A stretch of DNA of 51,691 nucleotides, taken from the sequence record OZ346160.1, one strand, 5' to 3'. Source of the DNA: a phage. The translations under genes were made by a program, and so were the position numbers. The notes beneath the pieces were generated by a model that saw only the letters and a program-made list of their open reading frames with translations, made no database searches and was not told where the DNA came from. Within the stretch, counting starts at the first letter, position 1, and each line of letters starts with the position of its first letter. Positions 30,709 to 47,749 of this stretch are shown here, piece by piece.

Positions 30709-30748
30709 TCAATAACACGAGATGGCTTTTAATAGCGGAGAAATGAAA

Positions 30749-31474
30749 ATGGCTAAAGATATTTTAGATAAAGACACCCATGACGCATTCGTTAGCTTTG
30801 AGCAGTTGGAGAGAGAAACGTTTATAGGGAATGCCCTTGCAACTGGAGGCCATTACCAGGCAGTAAAGACAAATCAATATTATAAGGTAAGCGGAAACCG
30901 ATACGCTGGAAGCACTACGCCGGACGTTGTGCGAGATATGTGGAGCACGCCTCAAGAGATCGTGGAGTGGATGGAATCAGAATTTGGTGAATACGATCTC
31001 GATGCGGCAGCAAGCCAGGAAAACGCAGTTTGCGAGAAGTTCTATAGCAAGGAAACAAACTGCTTAAAGCGTTGGTGGGGTAGCAATAAGCACGTATGGC
31101 TTAACCCGCCGTACAGCAACCCAACTCCATTTATCAAGAAAGCAATTGAGCAAATGGAGCACAACAACCAAATTGATGTTTTGTTGCCAGCCGACAACTC
31201 TACAGCATGGTTTTATGAGGCGCAGAAAAACGCGGCTGAAATCATCTGGATCACTGGTGAGGTTTACGAAGAGGGTGGAGTAGAATACTCCCGCACCGGA
31301 AGAATTGCCTTTGTGTCTGGATTGACTGGTGAGCCTGTGCAGGGAAACAACAAGGGAAGCGTGATTTTTGTCATGCGCAAACTTAAAGAAGGCGAGGAGC
31401 AGAAAACGCGATACGTTAAGATCAGCGATATTTGCCCTTCTGTAACCGAACGTCGCGCACGCAAACGGAGCTAA
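30749..31474 (+). CDS. dam: DNA N6-adenine methyltransferase (phage Dam family)
   Basis: NPPY catalytic motif (HVWLNPPYSNP); start chosen at MAKDIL (GGAG 8 nt upstream; alternatives at 30722/30743). Confidence 0.7.
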   Translation: MAKDILDKDTHDAFVSFEQLERETFIGNALATGGHYQAVKTNQYYKVSGNRYAGSTTPDVVRDMWSTPQEIVEWMESEFGEYDLDAAASQENAVCEKFYSKETNCLKRWWGSNKHVWLNPPYSNPTPFIKKAIEQMEHNNQIDVLLPADNSTAWFYEAQKNAAEIIWITGEVYEEGGVEYSRTGRIAFVSGLTGEPVQGNNKGSVIFVMRKLKEGEEQKTRYVKISDICPSVTERRARKRS

Positions 31475-31478
31475 CACG

Positions 31479-31736
31479 ATGGAAAAAGAGAGAAGCGTTT
31501 ATTTAAATGAAACTGGCGAGTGGTTGTTATTTCGCGCTATGGTGTGCGATGCACTTGATAAAAACCCTAACGTGAAAAAGATGATTGATTGCGATCCGTG
31601 GGAATTTTCAAGCGCATTAGATATGAGCTTTGAGGAGACAAGAAAACTCCCGCTTGAAAAATGGCACGAACAAATCAGAAATGACATGCAAGAGTTTGTT
31701 GATTCGTGGAATTTTCAGCACGGAATGATCCACTAA
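31479..31736 (+). CDS. hypothetical protein
   Basis: 85-aa ORF; stop codon embedded in cassette motif. Confidence 0.45.
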   Translation: MEKERSVYLNETGEWLLFRAMVCDALDKNPNVKKMIDCDPWEFSSALDMSFEETRKLPLEKWHEQIRNDMQEFVDSWNFQHGMIH

Positions 31737-31779
31737 TAGCACTTTTTGTTAAAACGCCCGGCCTAGTGTCGGGCATAAT
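31735..31779 (+). promoter_or_regulatory. cassette copy
   Basis: Consensus motif overlapping stop; hairpin GCCCGG..CGGGC; CATAAT at 31774..31779. Confidence 0.55.
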
Positions 31780-31811
31780 TATTTCAACGAAGCAAACATG
31801 AGGAAATAAAA

Positions 31812-31991: not shown

Positions 31992-32223
31992 GCAAGGAAG
32001 AGATGCGGTATGGAATCACGCTAAAGAATGCGGTATTGCCGACGATATAAAGAAGATCGCGCAATACTTTGATATTGCAGATGTGAGCATAATTAGCGGC
32101 GACAAGATGACTTTCCTCAAGGAAAGGCCGCGAAAAATGGTAAGAGTTCCAGCAGTTCCAACAAAAATTGATTTCAAAGAGGCAATGGCTAAAATCCGAG
32201 AGCCTCGCAAATATTATAAATGA
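31981..32223 (+). CDS. hypothetical protein
   Basis: Start MKVEQG overlapping previous stop; GGAGG 12 nt upstream. Confidence 0.4.
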   Translation: MKVEQGRDAVWNHAKECGIADDIKKIAQYFDIADVSIISGDKMTFLKERPRKMVRVPAVPTKIDFKEAMAKIREPRKYYK

Positions 32224-32317
32224 GGATAGTTATCATGTGGCGCTTGTTTGTTCTACCGTTACCCGTTATCATCGCTGTTACAGTTATGTACCATATAGTA
32301 ATGAGATAGGTAGCAGA

Positions 32318-33433
32318 ATGAAAAATGTAAAAATTACAGATGAGCAATTCAAGATCGAACGGGCGGCGGGTAAGACATATAAACAGATCGCTCAAGAGTA
32401 CGGGATGAATGTGAGAAGCGTCGAGCGTCGCGCTGCGCGTCTTGCAAAACAAGGACAGGTGTCAACCATTGGAGCGCCTGGTTTTGGTGTTCATGGTGAG
32501 TCAGTAATGACAGACAAAGAAGGCAATATAATCCTCAAGTGGACAAAAACCAGCAAGGACAAAGAGCAATTAGAAGCATTGATGCGCGCAGCAATGGAGG
32601 CGTTTAGCGAGGAAGTGCCGCGATTAGATCCAGTTCCATTGCAGGAGCGTAACTATAATGAAACGCTTTCATTGTATCCGATCTTTGACATGCACTTAGG
32701 AGCTATGGCACATAAGCACGAATGCGGAGAAAATTGGGATACAGCTACGGCTGAGCGCGTTATGAATAACTTTATCGACTATGCTTTGATGTGCGCACCG
32801 GACAGCGAAAAGGCTGTTATCCTGATTGGTGGCGATATGCTGCATAGCGACGGCCTGGAGGCGGTGACACCTGCAAGCGGTCACGTACTTGATCAAGATA
32901 GCCGATATGCAAAATTGGTTTACGTTGCAATCCGTGCAATGCGTCGCGCAATTAATAAAATGCTGTTAAAGCATAAACATGTTGAGGTGCAGATCGTAGA
33001 GGGGAATCACGACCAATCAGGAATGATTTGGCTACGCGCAGCAATGGCGGCAGCATATGAGAACGAGCCGCGCGTTTACGTTGATGTTTCTCCTCGCGTT
33101 GTTCACCACACGCAATACGGAAAAACTTTCCTTGCGTACCATCACGGGCACACAGTGCGCAAACCTGAGACTTTGCTAATGATGTGCGCGTCAGATTGGC
33201 GGGAGGACTTCGGAAACTCAAAAACGATGTATGCGCACGTAGGGCACTGGCATCACCAGACCGTGACAGAAACGTCGCTTGGCATCGTGGAAGTGCATAG
33301 CACCCTGGCGGCAAAAGACGCATACGCCGCGCGCGGTGGCTGGAGATCTCGACGCCGTGCGGCGGTTATCATTTACGACAAAGAGCATGGAGAAGTCGGG
33401 CGATTTGTTCACTATCCAGAAATGATGAATTGA
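32318..33433 (+). CDS. calcineurin-like metallophosphoesterase with N-terminal HTH domain
   Basis: Start MKNVKIT; HTH-like KTYKQIAQEYGMNVRSVERRAARL; phosphoesterase motifs DMH, GGDMLHSD, GNHD, HHGH, GHWHH. Confidence 0.65.
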   Translation: MKNVKITDEQFKIERAAGKTYKQIAQEYGMNVRSVERRAARLAKQGQVSTIGAPGFGVHGESVMTDKEGNIILKWTKTSKDKEQLEALMRAAMEAFSEEVPRLDPVPLQERNYNETLSLYPIFDMHLGAMAHKHECGENWDTATAERVMNNFIDYALMCAPDSEKAVILIGGDMLHSDGLEAVTPASGHVLDQDSRYAKLVYVAIRAMRRAINKMLLKHKHVEVQIVEGNHDQSGMIWLRAAMAAAYENEPRVYVDVSPRVVHHTQYGKTFLAYHHGHTVRKPETLLMMCASDWREDFGNSKTMYAHVGHWHHQTVTETSLGIVEVHSTLAAKDAYAARGGWRSRRRAAVIIYDKEHGEVGRFVHYPEMMN

Positions 33434-33480
33434 TGAATTTTTATTTAAATCAATGACAAATTAAATCAAAAACTTGCAAA

Positions 33481-33510
33481 GGGGCGGCGTTTGTCGCCTC
33501 TTTTTTTTGT
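33481..33510 (+). terminator. terminator-like element before lysis cassette
   Basis: GC-rich imperfect hairpin followed by T8. Confidence 0.4.
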
Positions 33511-33578
33511 TTAATTTTTTACCATGTGCGTTTATCATGCGGTCAATATATTGACTTTAATTAATATGGAGAATAAAA

Positions 33579-34677: not shown

Positions 34678-34693
34678 TGCCTCCTTTATTTTT
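34662..34693. terminator. bidirectional terminator after spanin gene
   Basis: AGGAGGC-ttaat-GCCTCCT followed by TTTATTTTTAT; spanin stop codon lies in loop. Confidence 0.6.
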
Positions 34694-34916
34694 ATGCGTC
34701 GGGCCACATATGAGTTTCGTTTGTTGGCTTGTTCGATTCGTCGTACTGCCTTACTTCAATGCTGCAAGTGTCGCCGTACAGTTCTGCAATCTTGCGCTCA
34801 TTTTCAACCGCCGATTGCTCACTCCATCCAAAATCCCTGTCGTAAATTGTCGGTATTTCAGCAGAAGATCCGTTGTCATGATTATATACGCGAACTACTA
34901 AAAACTTGCTGGACAT
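34692..34916 (-). CDS. hypothetical protein
   Basis: 74-aa ORF downstream of cassette 34953..34997 on - strand. Confidence 0.45.
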   Translation of the reverse strand: MSSKFLVVRVYNHDNGSSAEIPTIYDRDFGWSEQSAVENERKIAELYGDTCSIEVRQYDESNKPTNETHMWPDA

Positions 34917-34952
34917 AATTTTACCTTTTGGTTGTTTCGTTTCGATGAAACA

Positions 34953-34997
34953 AATATACCCGACACTAGGCCGGGCGTTTTAACAAAAAATGCTATT
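34953..34997 (-). promoter_or_regulatory. cassette copy (near-identical inverted copy of 31735..31779)
   Basis: Reverse-complement AATAGCATTTTTTGTTAAAACGCCCGGCCTAGTGTCGGGTATATT. Confidence 0.55.
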
Positions 34998-35113: not shown

Positions 35114-35509
35114 TCATGTGATATTGAATTTACGGCGCAGTGCTTCAAGATCTTGTCTATTAGCTTTTGCCTGGAACAATTCATCATCGCCCATCTCCCC
35201 TATTCTCGCCATATCCCTGATCCAGTCGTTGCGCATACCATCCAGGCTATACAATTCGAATCCGAAAGGCCGCTTTGACGATCCTTTGGACCAGTATTTT
35301 CCGCAGACCCCATCTATATAACCAGCCGTCATCATTCTTGCGCAAAATTCCTTAGATGCAAGGCTGGCGAACATTCGCGGCGTAAGTCCGGCGGCCCGTG
35401 CGAGCCGCTCGCATTCTCTATGCTGATAGATAAATTTGGCTATGTGCTGCCTGTTAAACCAGTCGTATGACTCACACCATTTATACAGATCAAGCAAAAA
35501 CATAATCAT
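35114..35509 (-). CDS. hypothetical protein
   Basis: 131 aa, translationally coupled (ATGA) to upstream NTPase gene. Confidence 0.45.
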   Translation of the reverse strand: MIMFLLDLYKWCESYDWFNRQHIAKFIYQHRECERLARAAGLTPRMFASLASKEFCARMMTAGYIDGVCGKYWSKGSSKRPFGFELYSLDGMRNDWIRDMARIGEMGDDELFQAKANRQDLEALRRKFNIT

Positions 35510-37086
35510 CCCAGCAGTATTGGATTGACAAAAATAACACCATTAATAACACAAACATAATTTCTTTCTTCCAGCATTGGCAGCAAGTGCCCTTCTATCC
35601 TCTTCATTACTCCAGCCTGACCAACGAAAGGTTTTACCTTTCTCGCTGATTCGTACAGGGCGCGGATATTCAGAATCCCTTTATTAGCCTTGCCGTGTCT
35701 AGTGATCAATTCAATCAATTTACCCATTTCAGCATCATCACCAGCATAACCAGAAGCATTGGCGGCGCTAATGTATGTTTTGCTCAATTCCTGAAACATG
35801 ATCAGCGCCTCTTGCATTGTTTCCACGTCGATCTCTTTCGACTTCTGCGGGTATCCGGCAGGATTAAACCAGTTGCGGATAACATGCAGGACGGAAGCAA
35901 GCCTGATCACCTGTTTATCCATTTTACCCAGCGCACCGCGTAACATTGTATGAGAATACTTTCCGCCGTCTGCAAGATGCGGTTCCATATCCTGGCGAGC
36001 AATGTTGAGCACTCGCATAGCTGAACGGCTTATTTTCAGCGATATATTTGATTCGCTCATGATGTTATGCACCAATTGATAATATTGGGCCTTCAATTCA
36101 GGATCCACTGCCTCATAGGTAGAATCACCATTTTCATCAATGAATGAGCGACGGCCTAAGAATGATTCCTCACGGACCAACAAAAAGCGCTCACTCACAC
36201 CGATACCGCGCGATCCAGCGTCCATGATTCCGCTTATCGTTTCATCCTGGGCTATAACGCTCATACATCCAAGTGCGCGAAAACTCATGTTATTGTCAGC
36301 ATTAGCACGGGCAATTGATACGTGACCATTATCCCACGCCTTAAGCACTAGCTCACTGTTAGTCTTCCTTTCGCTATTGGCATAGGTCAAGCCTAACAGA
36401 CTGTTAATACTTGTTGCTTCGTCAGATATTACGGCAAAGTTACCTTGCTTGTTGTTGATTTTTGCCAAGCCTTCTGGAGTTGTATCTGAAACAGGGAAAG
36501 TTATATCACACATCTTTTCCAGCTTCTCCTCCAGATCCTCTTTTTCCTGGTATAGAGATTCCATATCAGCGCCTGATCTTTCGCTTTTCATCTCCTTTGC
36601 AAGACCTGCCAACTTTGCCTGTATTTTCTTTCTTTCCTTGCGGCGTTGCTCGTTGATCTTCTCAACTTCCGCAATCATCGGAGCAATAGCCATACTATTG
36701 ATCGCAGATTTACCAGTTGACGGCGGCTGGCTTGTAACGACGTAAAGCGCAGTCGGCTGATCGGTCCCGTGATAGTCAACCGTAAAGCGTCCAAGCATAG
36801 CGGCAGAAATGCAGCCGATAAAGTGCATGTAAGCCGATGATTCAGGGAATTGAACGGATCGCGCAATACTTCGTGATAACTTTCCGACAACATCAATATC
36901 ATTACCAAGAGAAATGACGGGGTAGCGATCGTGACCGCTATTTACATCCTTTACGTCGCCCCAAAAGCTGGACGACTGGCGATAGCCGTTAGCCTGAATT
37001 GATACGCGAACTGGCGAAAGGTTCTGGCTTTCAGCCATAGCGATTATTTGCTGTGGAGTTAATTTGTTCGTTTCTAATGAAAACAT
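35506..37086 (-). CDS. P-loop NTPase of unknown function (DUF3987-like)
   Basis: 526 aa; Walker A-like QPPSTGKS; AGGAG RBS; own cassette upstream. Confidence 0.55.
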   Translation of the reverse strand: MFSLETNKLTPQQIIAMAESQNLSPVRVSIQANGYRQSSSFWGDVKDVNSGHDRYPVISLGNDIDVVGKLSRSIARSVQFPESSAYMHFIGCISAAMLGRFTVDYHGTDQPTALYVVTSQPPSTGKSAINSMAIAPMIAEVEKINEQRRKERKKIQAKLAGLAKEMKSERSGADMESLYQEKEDLEEKLEKMCDITFPVSDTTPEGLAKINNKQGNFAVISDEATSINSLLGLTYANSERKTNSELVLKAWDNGHVSIARANADNNMSFRALGCMSVIAQDETISGIMDAGSRGIGVSERFLLVREESFLGRRSFIDENGDSTYEAVDPELKAQYYQLVHNIMSESNISLKISRSAMRVLNIARQDMEPHLADGGKYSHTMLRGALGKMDKQVIRLASVLHVIRNWFNPAGYPQKSKEIDVETMQEALIMFQELSKTYISAANASGYAGDDAEMGKLIELITRHGKANKGILNIRALYESARKVKPFVGQAGVMKRIEGHLLPMLEERNYVCVINGVIFVNPILLG

Positions 37087-37788: not shown

Positions 37789-37833
37789 ATTATGCCAGGT
37801 TTTTACACCTGGCTTTTAACAAAAAGTGCTATT
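37789..37833 (-). promoter_or_regulatory. cassette copy
   Basis: Consensus motif overlapping methyltransferase stop; hairpin CCAGG..CCTGG; CATAAT at 40-45. Confidence 0.55.
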
Positions 37834-38539
37834 TTGAGTTTGACTCAAAGACGGCGCGAGCAAATCCGCGCGGAGTGAGGGAGCGGATCATCTTTGTGCG
37901 CGATGACTTACCGCCAGTTTTGGCCCAGCCTGGATTATCTTTGTCTTCCTCTTTCGGCAGGATTAAAGCGCGCGGAGGAATAACAAAGCCGTTGCCAGTC
38001 CAGAGGCACGTTTTCTTAAAATAGCGATCCCGTGCCGGAATAATATCAGGGAAGTCGGGATGTTTATCATCTTCCGGCAGATAGCCAGCGTAATCGCACG
38101 GATGGAACGTATAATCAGGCTTTCGCCATAACGTTGACAACTTGCCAACCGGATTTTCGATCATGTAAGGAACACCGAAATAATCAGCTATATCAGCCGC
38201 GATTCTGCAAGTGTCGGCGGCCTCATCCTGGAAAGATGGATTCTCAAGGCGTTTTTTGGCCCAATGGCGAGATCCGCTATTTGCAAGGTCGGTGCATGGT
38301 GGGAAGGCCATAATAAAATCAGGATTGCCCCACTCATTATTGATTGCCTTAACATAAAAAGCATCGTCAATCCAGACGTTAACGTATTCGATATTCTCAT
38401 GCTGTATGCGCACTGACTGGTAATCACCGTGATCGCCGCCGTCAGCATTAAAGCAAATGCACTTATAGCCATTATCAGCCCAATCTTTAACGGCTTTACC
38501 AGATCCATCAAATAGGGAGAATATTAAACCTTTATACAT
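37829..38539 (-). CDS. DNA (cytosine-5)-methyltransferase
   Basis: Start at MYKGLIFSLFDGSG (motif I FxGxG); PC motif FPPCTDLA (catalytic Cys); ENV motif MIENPVG. Confidence 0.75.
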   Translation of the reverse strand: MYKGLIFSLFDGSGKAVKDWADNGYKCICFNADGGDHGDYQSVRIQHENIEYVNVWIDDAFYVKAINNEWGNPDFIMAFPPCTDLANSGSRHWAKKRLENPSFQDEAADTCRIAADIADYFGVPYMIENPVGKLSTLWRKPDYTFHPCDYAGYLPEDDKHPDFPDIIPARDRYFKKTCLWTGNGFVIPPRALILPKEEDKDNPGWAKTGGKSSRTKMIRSLTPRGFARAVFESNSK

Positions 38540-38549
38540 CGTAATTACC

Positions 38550-38774
38550 TCAAAACGGAAAACAGCGCGCACAACCAGGATCGAAATCGCATCCACAATC
38601 ATTAACAATCATAGTGGGATCTGCAAATATTGCGCTTGATTCAAGATCCATATCCATATCACCTAAAGCCTCATCAAGAGTCTTAATTTTATATGCCACT
38701 TCAAGCGCCGCCTCTTTATTTAGTCCGGCATCTTCTGCCATTTGAAGGCGTTCAAAAAATCCGTCTTGACTCAT
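38550..38774 (-). CDS. hypothetical acidic protein
   Basis: 74-aa ORF; C-terminal Cys cluster CGCDFDPGCARC. Confidence 0.45.
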   Translation of the reverse strand: MSQDGFFERLQMAEDAGLNKEAALEVAYKIKTLDEALGDMDMDLESSAIFADPTMIVNDCGCDFDPGCARCFPF

Positions 38775-45539: not shown

Positions 45540-45721
45540 TTGTCTACGTTGTGCATGGTGATATTTACTACGACGGAGAATACTTTGAGGGAGCTTTCAG
45601 CGAATTTGATAAGGCAGAACAGCACGCTGAGACGCTTACGGATTGTTACGACGAAGTAACAATACGCGAGATAAAACTTGATGATCCAACATATGATGGC
45701 GACAAATGGAACGTAAAATGA
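45536..45721 (+). CDS. hypothetical acidic protein
   Basis: 61-aa ORF coupled to neighbours. Confidence 0.4.
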   Translation: MIVYVVHGDIYYDGEYFEGAFSEFDKAEQHAETLTDCYDEVTIREIKLDDPTYDGDKWNVK

Positions 45722-46428
45722 AAAAATACACTTTCGAACTGTGGGGCAAAAAGTACGAATTAATCACCAGCAAGCCGATTGTTATCGTTGACCTGGACGG
45801 CACATTATCGGACGGATCGCATCGTTTGCATTTGCTGCCAACTGAAAACTTGCACCTTACGGAATCGTGGCGCGAGTTTAACAGGGCCGCCGCCGGAGAT
45901 TCACCGATTAAAAGCACTATCGCGGTTATTAACGGTTTATGGGTGTCGGGATTTGCCATCGTCATCTTGACCGGACGCAGCGACGAGGTTCGCTATGAAA
46001 CCTGCAAATGGTTGAATGAGAACGGCGTGAAGTTTGACGAAATCATCATGCGCCGCCAGGAGGACAACCGAAAGGATACGGTTATTAAAGAAGAAGCCTT
46101 GCGCGCTATTGGCCTGGACAACATTGTTTGCGCCTTTGACGATTCGCCTAACGTGGTTAAGCACTTCCGCAGCTTGGGGATCACAACCTATCAGGTCACG
46201 GAATACGACAAGCCACACGCTCACATACAATCTCACGGCGTGGAATCAATCAAGATCACGAAGCGCGCCCGATTCGTCGGCAGCAAAGACAGCCTGGTCA
46301 ATGCCAGTTTTACCAGAGGAATAGCCTATGACGTTGTTTCTTATCATGACAAGAGTTTTATAGTTCATGATGATTCTGGATGCGCCTGGTCATTCAATCA
46401 TAGTGACGGCGATTTTGTTAATGCGTAA
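45718..46428 (+). CDS. HAD-superfamily phosphatase (polynucleotide 3'-phosphatase-like)
   Basis: Start MKKYTF; HAD motif I VIVDLDGTL near N-terminus. Confidence 0.6.
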   Translation: MKKYTFELWGKKYELITSKPIVIVDLDGTLSDGSHRLHLLPTENLHLTESWREFNRAAAGDSPIKSTIAVINGLWVSGFAIVILTGRSDEVRYETCKWLNENGVKFDEIIMRRQEDNRKDTVIKEEALRAIGLDNIVCAFDDSPNVVKHFRSLGITTYQVTEYDKPHAHIQSHGVESIKITKRARFVGSKDSLVNASFTRGIAYDVVSYHDKSFIVHDDSGCAWSFNHSDGDFVNA

Positions 46429-47158: not shown

Positions 47159-47749
47159 ATGAAACGAGACATTATCATCCTTAATGGGCCGCCAGGTTGC
47201 GGGAAGGACACTATTGCAGCTTACCTAACTGGCCATCGTTACCCTGCCGTCAAGGCGTCATTCAAACAGCCGATGTTCGATATTGCTTTTTCTATGCTGG
47301 GCGTGTACCGATACGATGAATTTATGGACCTGTACAACGACCGAGAGCAAAAAGAAAAGCCTCAAGTTATCTTGGGCGGCAAGTCACCTCGACAATTCAT
47401 GATCTGGATTAGCGAGGACGTAATGAAGCCAGTTTTTGGGGATCACTATTTCGGGCGTCGAATGGTTGAAGAGATTCACGAGATGTACCGAGATTTGGCG
47501 GTTGTGATCAGTGATGGCGGATTCCCCGAAGAAATCAAGCCGCTGGTTAAGGCAGGGCATGAAGTGCATATTTGCCGATTGCATCGCGACGGCTTCACGT
47601 TTGCTGGCGATTCGAGAGACTACATTGACCTGAGCGGTTATCACTATCGAATCCACCACTATGATTTCCACTTGCAGGACGGCAAGCCAGATCTGGCTGT
47701 AAACGAGATCGTCAATACGGTCAAATGGAAGCACACACAGATTAAATAG
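47159..47749 (+). CDS. P-loop nucleotide/polynucleotide kinase (putative)
   Basis: 196 aa; Walker A ILNGPPGCGKDT at N-terminus; same array as HAD phosphatase. Confidence 0.55.
   Translation: MKRDIIILNGPPGCGKDTIAAYLTGHRYPAVKASFKQPMFDIAFSMLGVYRYDEFMDLYNDREQKEKPQVILGGKSPRQFMIWISEDVMKPVFGDHYFGRRMVEEIHEMYRDLAVVISDGGFPEEIKPLVKAGHEVHICRLHRDGFTFAGDSRDYIDLSGYHYRIHHYDFHLQDGKPDLAVNEIVNTVKWKHTQIK

What the first reader, a model, noticed from the sequence alone, without database searches (positions are those of the whole stretch)
32318..33433. Calcineurin-like metallophosphoesterase fused to an N-terminal HTH domain
All five phosphoesterase signature motifs are present (DMH, GDMLHSD, GNHD, HHGH, GHWHH) behind a helix-turn-helix resembling sigma region 4. 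A DNA-binding phosphoesterase just upstream of the lysis genes could be a nuclease (Mre11/SbcD-like), a protein phosphatase, or an enzyme degrading nucleotide second messengers of host immunity.
Basis: partly seen in the sequence, partly recalled or inferred. Interest (0 to 1): 0.6.

Follow-up and report, generated by a model that had tools for sequence, protein, structure and literature searches.

The report
Phage DNA-binding metallophosphoesterase, probable nuclease
This is a real gene of a T1-like coliphage, already annotated in thousands of phage genomes, that joins a DNA-binding helix-turn-helix to an Mre11/SbcD-like metal-dependent phosphodiesterase; it is most likely a DNA nuclease, but nobody has tested what it does.

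Summary
Window 32318-33433 (+) is a 371-aa ORF. It has an N-terminal three-helix HTH, a beta-hairpin/helix linker and a complete metallophosphoesterase (MPE) core, and it lies one terminator upstream of holin/endolysin/spanin.

The window is a Drexlerviridae (Warwickvirus) genome. The protein is 100% identical to the Escherichia phage MikeNSara "DNA repair exonuclease", is the counterpart of phage T1 gene 16, and belongs to PHROG 704.

The family is very large (2,042 phage records; 4,617 50%-identity clusters). Its metal-binding residues are invariant, so it is an active enzyme. No experimental study of it turned up in my searches.

Fold searches put the core nearest the nuclease MPEs (SbcD, Mre11, PolD DP1) and far from lambda-type protein phosphatases. 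It lacks the Mre11 capping domain and has no Rad50/SbcC partner.

Gene neighbours are DNA-metabolism genes. In several lineages a HAD phosphatase and a dNMP kinase follow it directly.

The closest functional analogue is T5 A1, a predicted metallophosphatase that degrades host DNA. A1-like proteins have the same HTH...MPE layout, but homology is only suggestive.

Best reading: a stand-alone, DNA-tethered nuclease. The protein-phosphatase reading is disfavoured, and the second-messenger reading has no support.

The parts
32318..33433 (+). CDS of the HTH-metallophosphoesterase protein (371 aa; counterpart of phage T1 gene 16; PHROG 704)
   Evidence: ORF list and sequence. phrog_704 at E=6.6e-149 over the full length. 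99% nt and 100% aa identity to MikeNSara CDS0042. T1 ST16 sits at the same position in the T1 genome.
32339..32452 (+). N-terminal three-helix helix-turn-helix (aa 8-45), basic (pI 10.2 for aa 1-50)
   Evidence: AF2 helices at 8-16, 21-28 and 32-44. Sub-threshold Pfam HTH hits. The family profile hits GerE, DesR and VraR HTHs in the PDB. HTH hits are spread across 96 members. pI.
32483..32611 (+). Family-specific beta-hairpin plus helix (aa 56-98) holding the near-invariant G69 and W75. It is present even in relatives that lack the HTH.
   Evidence: AF2 strands 56-65 and 71-80 and helix 82-98. Conservation. The HTH-less Campylobacter phage F358 homologue starts at this element.
32663..33430 (+). 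Metallophosphoesterase catalytic core (aa 116-371). The protein ends with the core, so there is no capping domain.
32687..32695 (+). MPE motif I, D124-M-H126
   Evidence: D124 and H126 invariant.
32831..32851 (+). MPE motif II, G172-D-M-L-H176-S-D178
   Evidence: D173 invariant; H176 and D178 at least 90% conserved.
33002..33013 (+). MPE motif III, G229-N-H-D232, followed by the family-specific S/G-x-x-W238-L
   Evidence: The same 'E-[GS]-NHD-x-x-x-x-WL' string occurs in T5 A1-like proteins.
33140..33151 (+). MPE motif IV, H275-H276-G-H278
   Evidence: H276 invariant.
33242..33256 (+). MPE motif V, G309-H310-W-H312-H
   Evidence: H312 invariant; H310 at 95%.
33478..33513 (+). Intrinsic terminator (11-bp stem plus T-run) between this gene and the holin
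   Evidence: T1 has an annotated terminator at the equivalent place.
31735..31796 (+). Left arm of a 62-nt inverted repeat that contains a terminator hairpin. Together with the right arm it brackets the block of small ORFs, this gene and the lysis cassette.
34936..34997 (-). Right arm of the same 62-nt inverted repeat (terminator for the leftward operon)
45706..46428 (+). HAD_PNKP-type phosphatase. It is unlinked here, but its orthologue lies directly downstream of the HTH-MPE gene in Klebsiella T1-like, Jersey/K1G-like and other phages. Partnership is inferred only.
   Evidence: Pfam HAD_PNKP at E=8.8e-21. 60% identity to the neighbour cluster. Adjacency. phrog_415.
47159..47749 (+). dNMP-kinase-like P-loop protein. 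Its orthologue is the second gene downstream of the HTH-MPE gene in the same lineages. Partnership is inferred only.
   Evidence: 42% identity to the neighbour cluster, which is phrog_139 'deoxynucleoside monophosphate kinase' at E=1e-46. Adjacency.

Best explanation
The gene encodes an active two-metal phosphodiesterase of the nuclease branch of the calcineurin-like (MPE) superfamily. A basic N-terminal HTH holds it on DNA. Unlike Mre11/SbcD it works alone, with no capping domain and no Rad50/SbcC ATPase.

The most likely job is to cut or trim DNA during lytic growth. Two targets fit. One is the host chromosome, with the resulting nucleotides salvaged through the phage HAD phosphatase and dNMP kinase, as T5 A1 and T4 gp46/47 do. 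The other is ends and intermediates of phage replication and recombination.

Shown here: the gene is real, it has the MPE fold, its active site is invariant, it carries an HTH, its nearest structural neighbours are nucleases, and its neighbours are DNA- and nucleotide-metabolism genes.

Inferred, not shown: that the substrate is DNA, that the host chromosome is the target, and when the gene is expressed.
For: 1. Active enzyme. All metal ligands are invariant in 142 diverse relatives and in 96 others.

3. Profile comparisons. T4 gp47 gives 35.6% over 182 columns. A T5 A1-like profile gives 82% full-length and 36-65% for the MPE core alone. E. coli SbcD gives 2.7% and lambda NinI 0.6%.

4. HTH. 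It is seen in most members and is of varied Pfam type.

5. Gene context.
- In T1-like phages the gene follows helicase, VRR-NUC and Dam.
- In E. coli prophages it lies between a Lin1244_N replication protein and DnaB.
- In a Campylobacter phage it is next to DNA ligase and a Holliday-junction resolvase.
- In one contig it lies downstream of DNA polymerase A and an ssDNA-binding protein.
- In at least three lineages it is followed directly by a HAD phosphatase and a dNMP kinase.

6. Precedents for stand-alone phage MPEs that destroy host DNA.
- T5 A1 is necessary and sufficient for host DNA degradation (bioRxiv 10.64898/2026.04.02.716235).
- Mycobacteriophage gp48 has the same kind of role (PMC12287305).
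Against: No biochemical or genetic data for this family turned up in my literature searches.

The family also occurs in temperate, lambda-like prophages, where wholesale destruction of host DNA is not expected.

Gene neighbourhoods vary across the 154 loci in which the gene could be located. HNH endonuclease, endolysin and a small 73-aa protein rank as high as, or above, the HAD phosphatase and kinase.

In this window the HAD phosphatase and the kinase lie 12-14 kb away.

Homology to T5 A1 is not established. HMM-to-sequence scores are at most 17 bits, and PHROG 1745 and PHROG 704 do not cross-hit.
Confidence: 0.5

Rival explanations
1. It is a replication or recombination accessory rather than a host-DNA destroyer. 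In this reading it is a DP1- or Mre11-like exonuclease that trims primers, flaps, hairpins or ends for the phage replisome or for the RecE/Erf pathway, recruited to a phage DNA site by the HTH.
Against: The gene is not linked to replication genes in Jersey/K1G-like or Casjensviridae phages. No conserved partner emerged across the 154 loci in which it could be located. The HTH type is not conserved, which argues against one specific DNA site.
Confidence: 0.2
2. It is a transcription factor for late or lysis genes, in which the MPE domain acts as a sensor or effector.
For: It has an N-terminal HTH that resembles sigma region 4 or LuxR/GerE. It recurs next to lysis genes or just upstream of the Q antiterminator. 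In this window it lies in a block bracketed by identical terminators, together with the lysis cassette.
Against: An invariant catalytic centre is not needed for a regulator. HTH-less members exist. A strong terminator separates it from the holin. Its position varies between lineages.
Confidence: 0.08
3. It is a small-molecule phosphodiesterase that destroys nucleotide immune signals such as cyclic oligonucleotides, cNMPs or ADPR derivatives, or other nucleotides. That would make it an anti-defence enzyme.
Against: A DNA-binding domain has no obvious role in that activity. There is no PADLOC hit. The searched literature holds no MPE-type anti-signalling enzyme; the known ones are 2H, MBL and RyR-domain enzymes or sponges. 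The gene neighbours are DNA and nucleotide-salvage genes rather than anti-defence islands.
Confidence: 0.08
4. It is a nucleic-acid end-healing enzyme (2',3'-cyclic or 3'-phosphodiesterase) that works with the PNKP-type HAD phosphatase and a kinase. This would resemble the MPE domain of bacterial Pnkp (comparison from memory, not tested here).
For: A HAD_PNKP phosphatase (phrog_415 'polynucleotide kinase') and a P-loop kinase lie immediately downstream in several lineages.
Against: The kinase matches dNMP kinases (phrog_139, E=1e-46), not polynucleotide kinases. No ligase is annotated in the window's near-identical relative. Fold neighbours favour Mre11, SbcD and DP1.
Confidence: 0.07
5. It is a Ser/Thr/Tyr protein phosphatase like lambda NinI.
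For: It belongs to the same superfamily. In some lambda-like contigs it occupies NinI's position immediately upstream of Q.
Confidence: 0.04

Closest known systems
PHROG 704 'DNA repair exonuclease' / phage T1 gene 16 product / 'putative phosphoesterase' of Drexlerviridae (called 'oxidoreductase' in Jerseyvirus records)
   Same: It is the same protein family over the full length (E=6.6e-149). Identical or near-identical proteins are already in GenBank. The genome position is the same as in T1.
   Different: Nothing differs. All the names are homology-based guesses, and no experimental characterisation turned up.
Mre11 / SbcD / T4 gp47 nuclease subunits
   Different: It has no C-terminal capping domain, because the protein ends with the core. 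No Rad50/SbcC/gp46 partner is present in the window. It has an extra N-terminal HTH and beta-hairpin. The sequence-profile link to E. coli SbcD is negligible.
Phage T5 A1 (PHROG 1745), a predicted metallophosphatase that is necessary and sufficient for host DNA degradation
   Same: A1-like proteins also have an N-terminal HTH of the same type (hhalign 97% for the N-terminal segments). They have a C-terminal MPE with the shared string E-[GS]-NHD-x4-WL and collinear motifs. T5 also encodes a dNMP phosphatase (Dmp) next to A1.
   Different: A1-like proteins carry an extra domain of about 230 aa between the HTH and the MPE. The two PHROGs do not cross-hit. MPE-only hhalign gives 36-65%, and HMM scores are at most 17 bits. 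Homology is therefore suggestive only. T5 A1 also acts with a separate DNA-binding protein, A2, in second-step DNA transfer, a process for which nothing here indicates a T1-like equivalent.
Mycobacteriophage cluster A metallophosphoesterase (A10ZJ24 gp48 / Bxb1 gp47)
   Same: It is a stand-alone phage MPE with five motifs, reported to have phosphodiesterase activity and to break host genomic DNA (PMC12287305).
   Different: It is about 255 aa with motif I at residue 10, so it has no HTH or hairpin. hhalign gives only 10%.
Archaeal PolD small subunit DP1 (3'-5' proofreading exonuclease)
   Different: The window encodes no PolD large subunit and no phage polymerase. The N-terminal region is an HTH plus hairpin, not DP1's N-terminal domains.
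Lambda NinI (lambda protein phosphatase)
   Same: It belongs to the MPE superfamily. In some lambda-like contigs the gene takes NinI's slot just before Q.
   Different: It lacks the PPP signature motifs. hhalign gives 0.6%, and structural similarity is low.

Membership tests
Calcineurin-like metallophosphoesterase superfamily | Five ordered motifs: D-x-H, G-D, G-N-H-[DE], H, G-H-x-H | tested here: met
   All five are present at aa 124-126, 172-178, 229-232, 275-278 and 309-313. They are invariant or near-invariant in 142 relatives.
Calcineurin-like metallophosphoesterase superfamily | Beta-alpha-beta-alpha-beta sandwich fold | tested here: met
Calcineurin-like metallophosphoesterase superfamily | Pfam PF00149 gathering score | tested here: not met
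   16.8 bits against a cut-off of 21.5, E=0.0098. Only 19 of 96 members hit PF00149 at E<=0.01. This divergent clade has no Pfam model of its own.
PHROG 704 | Full-length match to the family profile | tested here: met
   E=6.6e-149, aa 5-370 against profile positions 3-389 of 390.
Mre11/SbcD nucleases | Nuclease-domain fold as the closest structural neighbour | tested here: met
Mre11/SbcD nucleases | C-terminal capping domain | tested here: not met
Mre11/SbcD nucleases | Rad50/SbcC-type ATPase partner encoded alongside | tested here: not met
   No such gene appears in the annotation of the 99%-identical genome, which covers all but its last ~760 bases, or among the large replication proteins scanned with Pfam. 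None lies next to relatives.
Mre11/SbcD nucleases | Significant sequence-profile similarity | tested here: inconclusive
   The family profile against the PDB finds T. maritima SbcD at E=0.95. hhalign gives 2.7% to E. coli SbcD and 35.6% to T4 gp47.
T5 A1-like proteins (PHROG 1745) | N-terminal HTH followed by a C-terminal MPE | tested here: met
   A1-like proteins from viral contigs carry N-terminal HTHs that match this family's HTH. The MPE motifs are collinear.
T5 A1-like proteins (PHROG 1745) | Conserved middle domain of about 230 aa (QNNT...NILPTA...YTTG...NYIQxKAGQKA) | tested here: not met
   This domain is absent here. Only a 54-aa hairpin/helix lies between the HTH and the MPE.
T5 A1-like proteins (PHROG 1745) | Profile match | tested here: inconclusive
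   The query gets no phrog_1745 hit, and T5 A1 gets no phrog_704 hit. hhalign gives 82% full-length, mainly from the HTH, and 36-65% for the MPE alone. HMM scores are 14-17 bits, against at most 9 for control MPEs.
PPP protein phosphatases (lambda NinI type) | GDxHG, GDxVDRG and GNHE signatures | tested here: not met
Sigma-70 region 4 (PF08281) | Pfam gathering score | tested here: not met
   18.3 bits against 25.7. Relatives hit many different HTH families instead. This is a generic three-helix HTH, not a sigma factor.
PolD DP1 / polymerase B-subunits | Association with a cognate polymerase catalytic subunit | tested here: not met
   No DNA polymerase is annotated in the near-identical genome.
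Class III cyclic-nucleotide phosphodiesterases (CpdA/Rv0805) | Specific family membership or cNMP hydrolysis | not testable with these tools

The most novel reading that the evidence does not exclude
The PHROG 704 HTH-MPE proteins and the T5 A1-like proteins would form one ancient family of DNA-tethered, partner-independent nucleases. Thousands of unrelated tailed phages, including temperate ones, would use them to dismantle or process host DNA and so supply nucleotide salvage. Phage T1 gene 16 would then be the long-sought T1 host-DNA-degradation function.
Probability: 0.25. Interest if true: 0.6.

Novelty: new member of a known kind. Interest (0 to 1): 0.33.

Why it matters
The gene itself is ordinary in the sense that databases already hold and name it. 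Even so, the family is one of the more common conserved phage enzymes with no tested function. It occurs in about 4% of deposited phage genomes and in more than 4,600 clusters at 50% identity.

If it is a stand-alone, HTH-guided nuclease related in function to T5 A1, it would give a simple genetic handle on host-DNA breakdown and nucleotide recycling in T1-like, Jersey-like, Klebsiella and many marine phages. That matters for transduction risk in phage therapy. It also matters for defence systems that sense degraded host DNA, such as Metis, which detects m6dAMP.

Tried and rejected
- Sequence searches of the PDB, with the single protein and with the family profile, gave only weak HTH hits and SbcD at E=0.95.
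- NCBIfam gave only a 29-residue sub-threshold PdeM match. PADLOC gave nothing.
- The AlphaFold-database Foldseek library was not available.
- The 142-sequence alignment was too divergent to seed search for related loci, so the closer alignment A2 was used instead.
- Literature searches for Drexlerviridae or T1 phosphoesterase function, escape mutants in SECphi phages, T1 host-DNA degradation and MPE-type anti-CBASS enzymes found no study of this family.
- I tested whether T5 Dmp is the same HAD family as the phosphatase that neighbours this gene. There is only a DxDGT-region match (35% over 48 aa), and Dmp has no Pfam hit, so this stays a hint.
- I tested whether A1-like genes outside T5-like phages sit next to HAD or dNMP-kinase genes. 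Only 2 of about 80 contigs showed this.
- The minus-strand ORF at 32952-33323, inside the gene, is treated as spurious, because the conserved plus-strand frame covers it.

Full report
WHAT IS THERE

The window is an essentially complete genome of a T1-like siphophage (Drexlerviridae, Tempevirinae, Warwickvirus). The target region is 99% identical in DNA to Escherichia phage MikeNSara and 97-98% identical to tiwna, tonnikala and others.

The plus-strand ORF runs from ATG 32318 to the stop at 33431-33433 and encodes 371 aa. The protein is 100% identical to the MikeNSara product annotated 'DNA repair exonuclease'. It is the positional and sequence counterpart of phage T1 gene 16. Other records call it 'putative phosphoesterase', 'hypothetical protein' or, in Jersey-like phages, 'oxidoreductase'.

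It matches PHROG 704 end to end (E=6.6e-149). It falls below every curated Pfam and NCBIfam threshold and has no sequence relative among solved structures.

An exhaustive HMMER search found 4,617 cluster representatives at 50% identity with E<=1e-3, and 1,052 with E<=1e-30. tblastn found the gene in 2,042 of 50,697 deposited phage genomes.

In an alignment of 142 representatives, each 31-57% identical to the query, D124, H126, D173, T184, N230, H231, H276 and H312 are invariant. H176, D178, D232, H278 and H310 are at least 90% conserved. An enzyme with a working two-metal centre is therefore under selection.

STRUCTURE

AlphaFold2 on a 96-sequence alignment gave mean pLDDT 86. The model has three parts:
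- a three-helix HTH (helices at 8-16, 21-28 and 32-44);
- a beta-hairpin plus helix (56-98) carrying the near-invariant G69 and W75;
- an MPE core from 116 to the C-terminus.

The HTH segment is basic, with pI 10.2. Across members it hits many different HTH models: HTH_1 in 29 of 96, HTH_50 in 20 and Sigma70_r4_2 in 19. It is best described as a generic DNA-binding HTH, not a sigma domain.

Some relatives lack the HTH and begin at the hairpin, for example the 317-aa protein of Campylobacter phage F358.

WHICH KIND OF MPE

Profile comparisons agree:

| Target | hhalign probability |
|---|---|
| T4 gp47 (182 columns) | 35.6% |
| Bxb1 gp47 | 10% |
| E. coli SbcD | 2.7% |
| Lambda NinI | 0.6% |

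So the core belongs with the nuclease-type MPEs, although the margin over small-molecule phosphodiesterases is modest.

It is not an Mre11/SbcD orthologue. The chain ends with the catalytic core, so there is no capping domain. Neither the window nor related loci encode a Rad50/SbcC-like partner.

GENE CONTEXT

In this window the gene order is SF2 helicase, VRR-NUC nuclease, Dam methylase and an 85-aa ORF, then a terminator. Next come two small ORFs (plus a possible 29-aa third), this gene, another terminator, and then holin, endolysin and spanin. T1 has the same layout, including terminators on both sides.

A 62-nt inverted repeat, 89% complementary and with an exact 18-nt core, contains a terminator hairpin. 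Its arms at 31735-31796 and 34936-34997 bracket the block of small ORFs, this gene, the lysis cassette and a small minus-strand ORF at 34692-34916 just inside the right arm. This suggests the block is insulated from the convergent flanking operons.

Elsewhere the gene appears in these settings:
- in E. coli prophages, between a Lin1244_N (DnaD-like) replication protein, or an inserted antirepressor, and DnaB;
- in several lambda-like contigs, directly upstream of the Q antiterminator, which is lambda NinI's slot;
- in one contig, downstream of DNA polymerase A and an ssDNA-binding protein;
- in a Campylobacter myophage, next to DNA ligase and a Holliday-junction resolvase;
- in Casjensviridae and some Vibrio phages, beside lysis genes.

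The clearest functional link among the neighbours, though not the most frequent one, is a HAD_PNKP-type phosphatase (phrog_415) followed by a dNMP kinase (phrog_139). They lie immediately downstream in Klebsiella T1-like, Jersey/K1G-like and at least one further lineage. This window carries orthologues of both, 60% and 42% identical, at 45706-46428 and 47159-47749.

The neighbourhood is otherwise variable. HNH endonuclease, endolysin and a small 73-aa protein rank as high as, or above, that pair.

CLOSEST FUNCTIONAL PRECEDENTS

T5 A1 is a predicted metallophosphatase. Its authors describe it as sharing structural features with double-strand-break-repair nucleases and polymerase proofreading subunits, and as the sole factor necessary and sufficient for host DNA degradation (bioRxiv 10.64898/2026.04.02.716235).

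I collected 86 A1-like proteins from viral contigs. They turn out to have an N-terminal HTH of the same type as this family. They also have a C-terminal MPE whose motif III region (E-S-N-H-D-x4-W-L) resembles the family's E-G-N-H-D-x4-W-L, and all five motifs are collinear.

hhalign gives 82% (E=1e-5) for the full-length profiles. Most of that comes from the HTH (97% for the N-terminal segments alone). The MPE cores alone give 36-65%. HMM-to-sequence scores are 14-17 bits, against at most 9 for control MPEs.

A1-like proteins also carry a middle domain of about 230 aa that is absent here, and the two PHROGs do not cross-hit. I therefore treat T5 A1 as the best analogue and a possible distant homologue, not as the same family.

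A second precedent is the mycobacteriophage cluster A MPE (gp48). It has phosphodiesterase activity and is reported to break host DNA (PMC12287305). T4 gp46/47 is likewise annotated as required for recombination and host-DNA degradation.

MOST LIKELY MECHANISM

The HTH docks the enzyme on duplex DNA. The two-metal centre (D124/H126, D173, N230/H231, H276, H310/H312) hydrolyses phosphodiester bonds. The enzyme needs no ATPase clamp.

The products would either feed the phage dNMP kinase and HAD phosphatase for nucleotide salvage, or be processed ends for replication and recombination.

The enzyme class and the DNA association are supported by data here. The substrate, the target (host or phage DNA) and the timing are inferences. 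From memory only, T1 is known to degrade host DNA, and a 'gene 2.5' was implicated genetically. I could not verify this or map it to gene 16.

RIVALS

The rival readings are:
- a replication or recombination accessory exonuclease (plausible, and it overlaps the main reading);
- a late-gene regulator (argued against by the invariant active site and the HTH-less members);
- a nucleotide-signal phosphodiesterase (no positive evidence);
- an end-healing enzyme working with the HAD phosphatase and kinase (the kinase looks like a dNMP kinase, and there is no ligase);
- a protein phosphatase (signatures absent, poor structural rank).

VERDICT

This is a real and correctly described feature, but it is already catalogued. 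It is a member of a very common, experimentally untouched phage MPE clade. Interest is modest. It would rise if the family proves to be a general A1-like host-DNA nuclease.

Noticed in passing
window 31735-31796 (+) and 34936-34997 (-): A 62-nt inverted repeat, 89% complementary, has an exact 18-nt core GCCCGGCCTAGTGTCGGG (0.01 copies expected by chance). Each arm is a terminator-like hairpin at the 3' end of an operon that reads inward. Together the arms bracket the 3.1-kb block of small ORFs, the HTH-MPE gene, the lysis cassette and a small minus-strand ORF. This may mark a separately regulated transcription unit.
   Followed up: partly
window 32220-32309 (+): A 29-codon, very hydrophobic ORF (MRIVIMWRLFVLPLPVIIAVTVMYHIVMR) lies between the upstream 80-aa ORF and the target gene. 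It is annotated as a CDS in MikeNSara. It could be a small membrane peptide or an annotation artefact.
   Followed up: no
window 32237 versus 32318: Start-codon disagreement between records. tiwna and cluster representative P0001 use an upstream GTG (398 aa). MikeNSara and most homologues (371-376 aa) start at the ATG at 32318, which the PHROG alignment supports.
   Followed up: yes
window 45706-46428 and 47159-47749: A HAD_PNKP-type phosphatase, annotated 'polynucleotide kinase' although it has no kinase domain, and a dNMP-kinase-like protein. In other phage lineages these two genes lie immediately downstream of the HTH-MPE gene. The phosphatase shares only a DxDGT-region similarity with T5 Dmp. 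A phage dNMP phosphatase could in principle blunt defences that sense m6dAMP, such as Metis, but that is speculation.
   Followed up: partly
window 30722-31474 (+) and 37829-38608 (-): There are two DNA methyltransferase genes in one 51-kb genome. The first is a Dam-family enzyme by Pfam. The second is known only from the 'DNA methyltransferase' annotation of the corresponding gene in MikeNSara and tiwna.
   Followed up: no
Database records hit: T1-like sequences are deposited under unlikely hosts. Fifteen 'Campylobacter phage' records appear in the DNA search, and A14b shows 92% protein identity. There is also 'Streptococcus phage MBBL140' (77%) and an 'Acinetobacter baumannii' protein that belongs to the Jersey-like group. 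These are probably contamination or mislabelling.
   Followed up: no
Loci L130-L135 and L140-L219 (T5 A1-like proteins): T5 A1 relatives are not confined to T5-like phages. At least 274 viral contigs, ranging from a few kb (fragments) to about 300 kb, encode them. Most of those examined start with one or two HTH motifs, a feature I did not see mentioned in the passages of the T5 A1 preprint I read.
   Followed up: partly
window 35506-37086 (-): The 526-aa protein annotated 'DNA helicase' matches only DUF3987 (E=5.9e-44) in Pfam. The 'helicase' label is therefore not supported by a recognised helicase domain in this scan.
   Followed up: no
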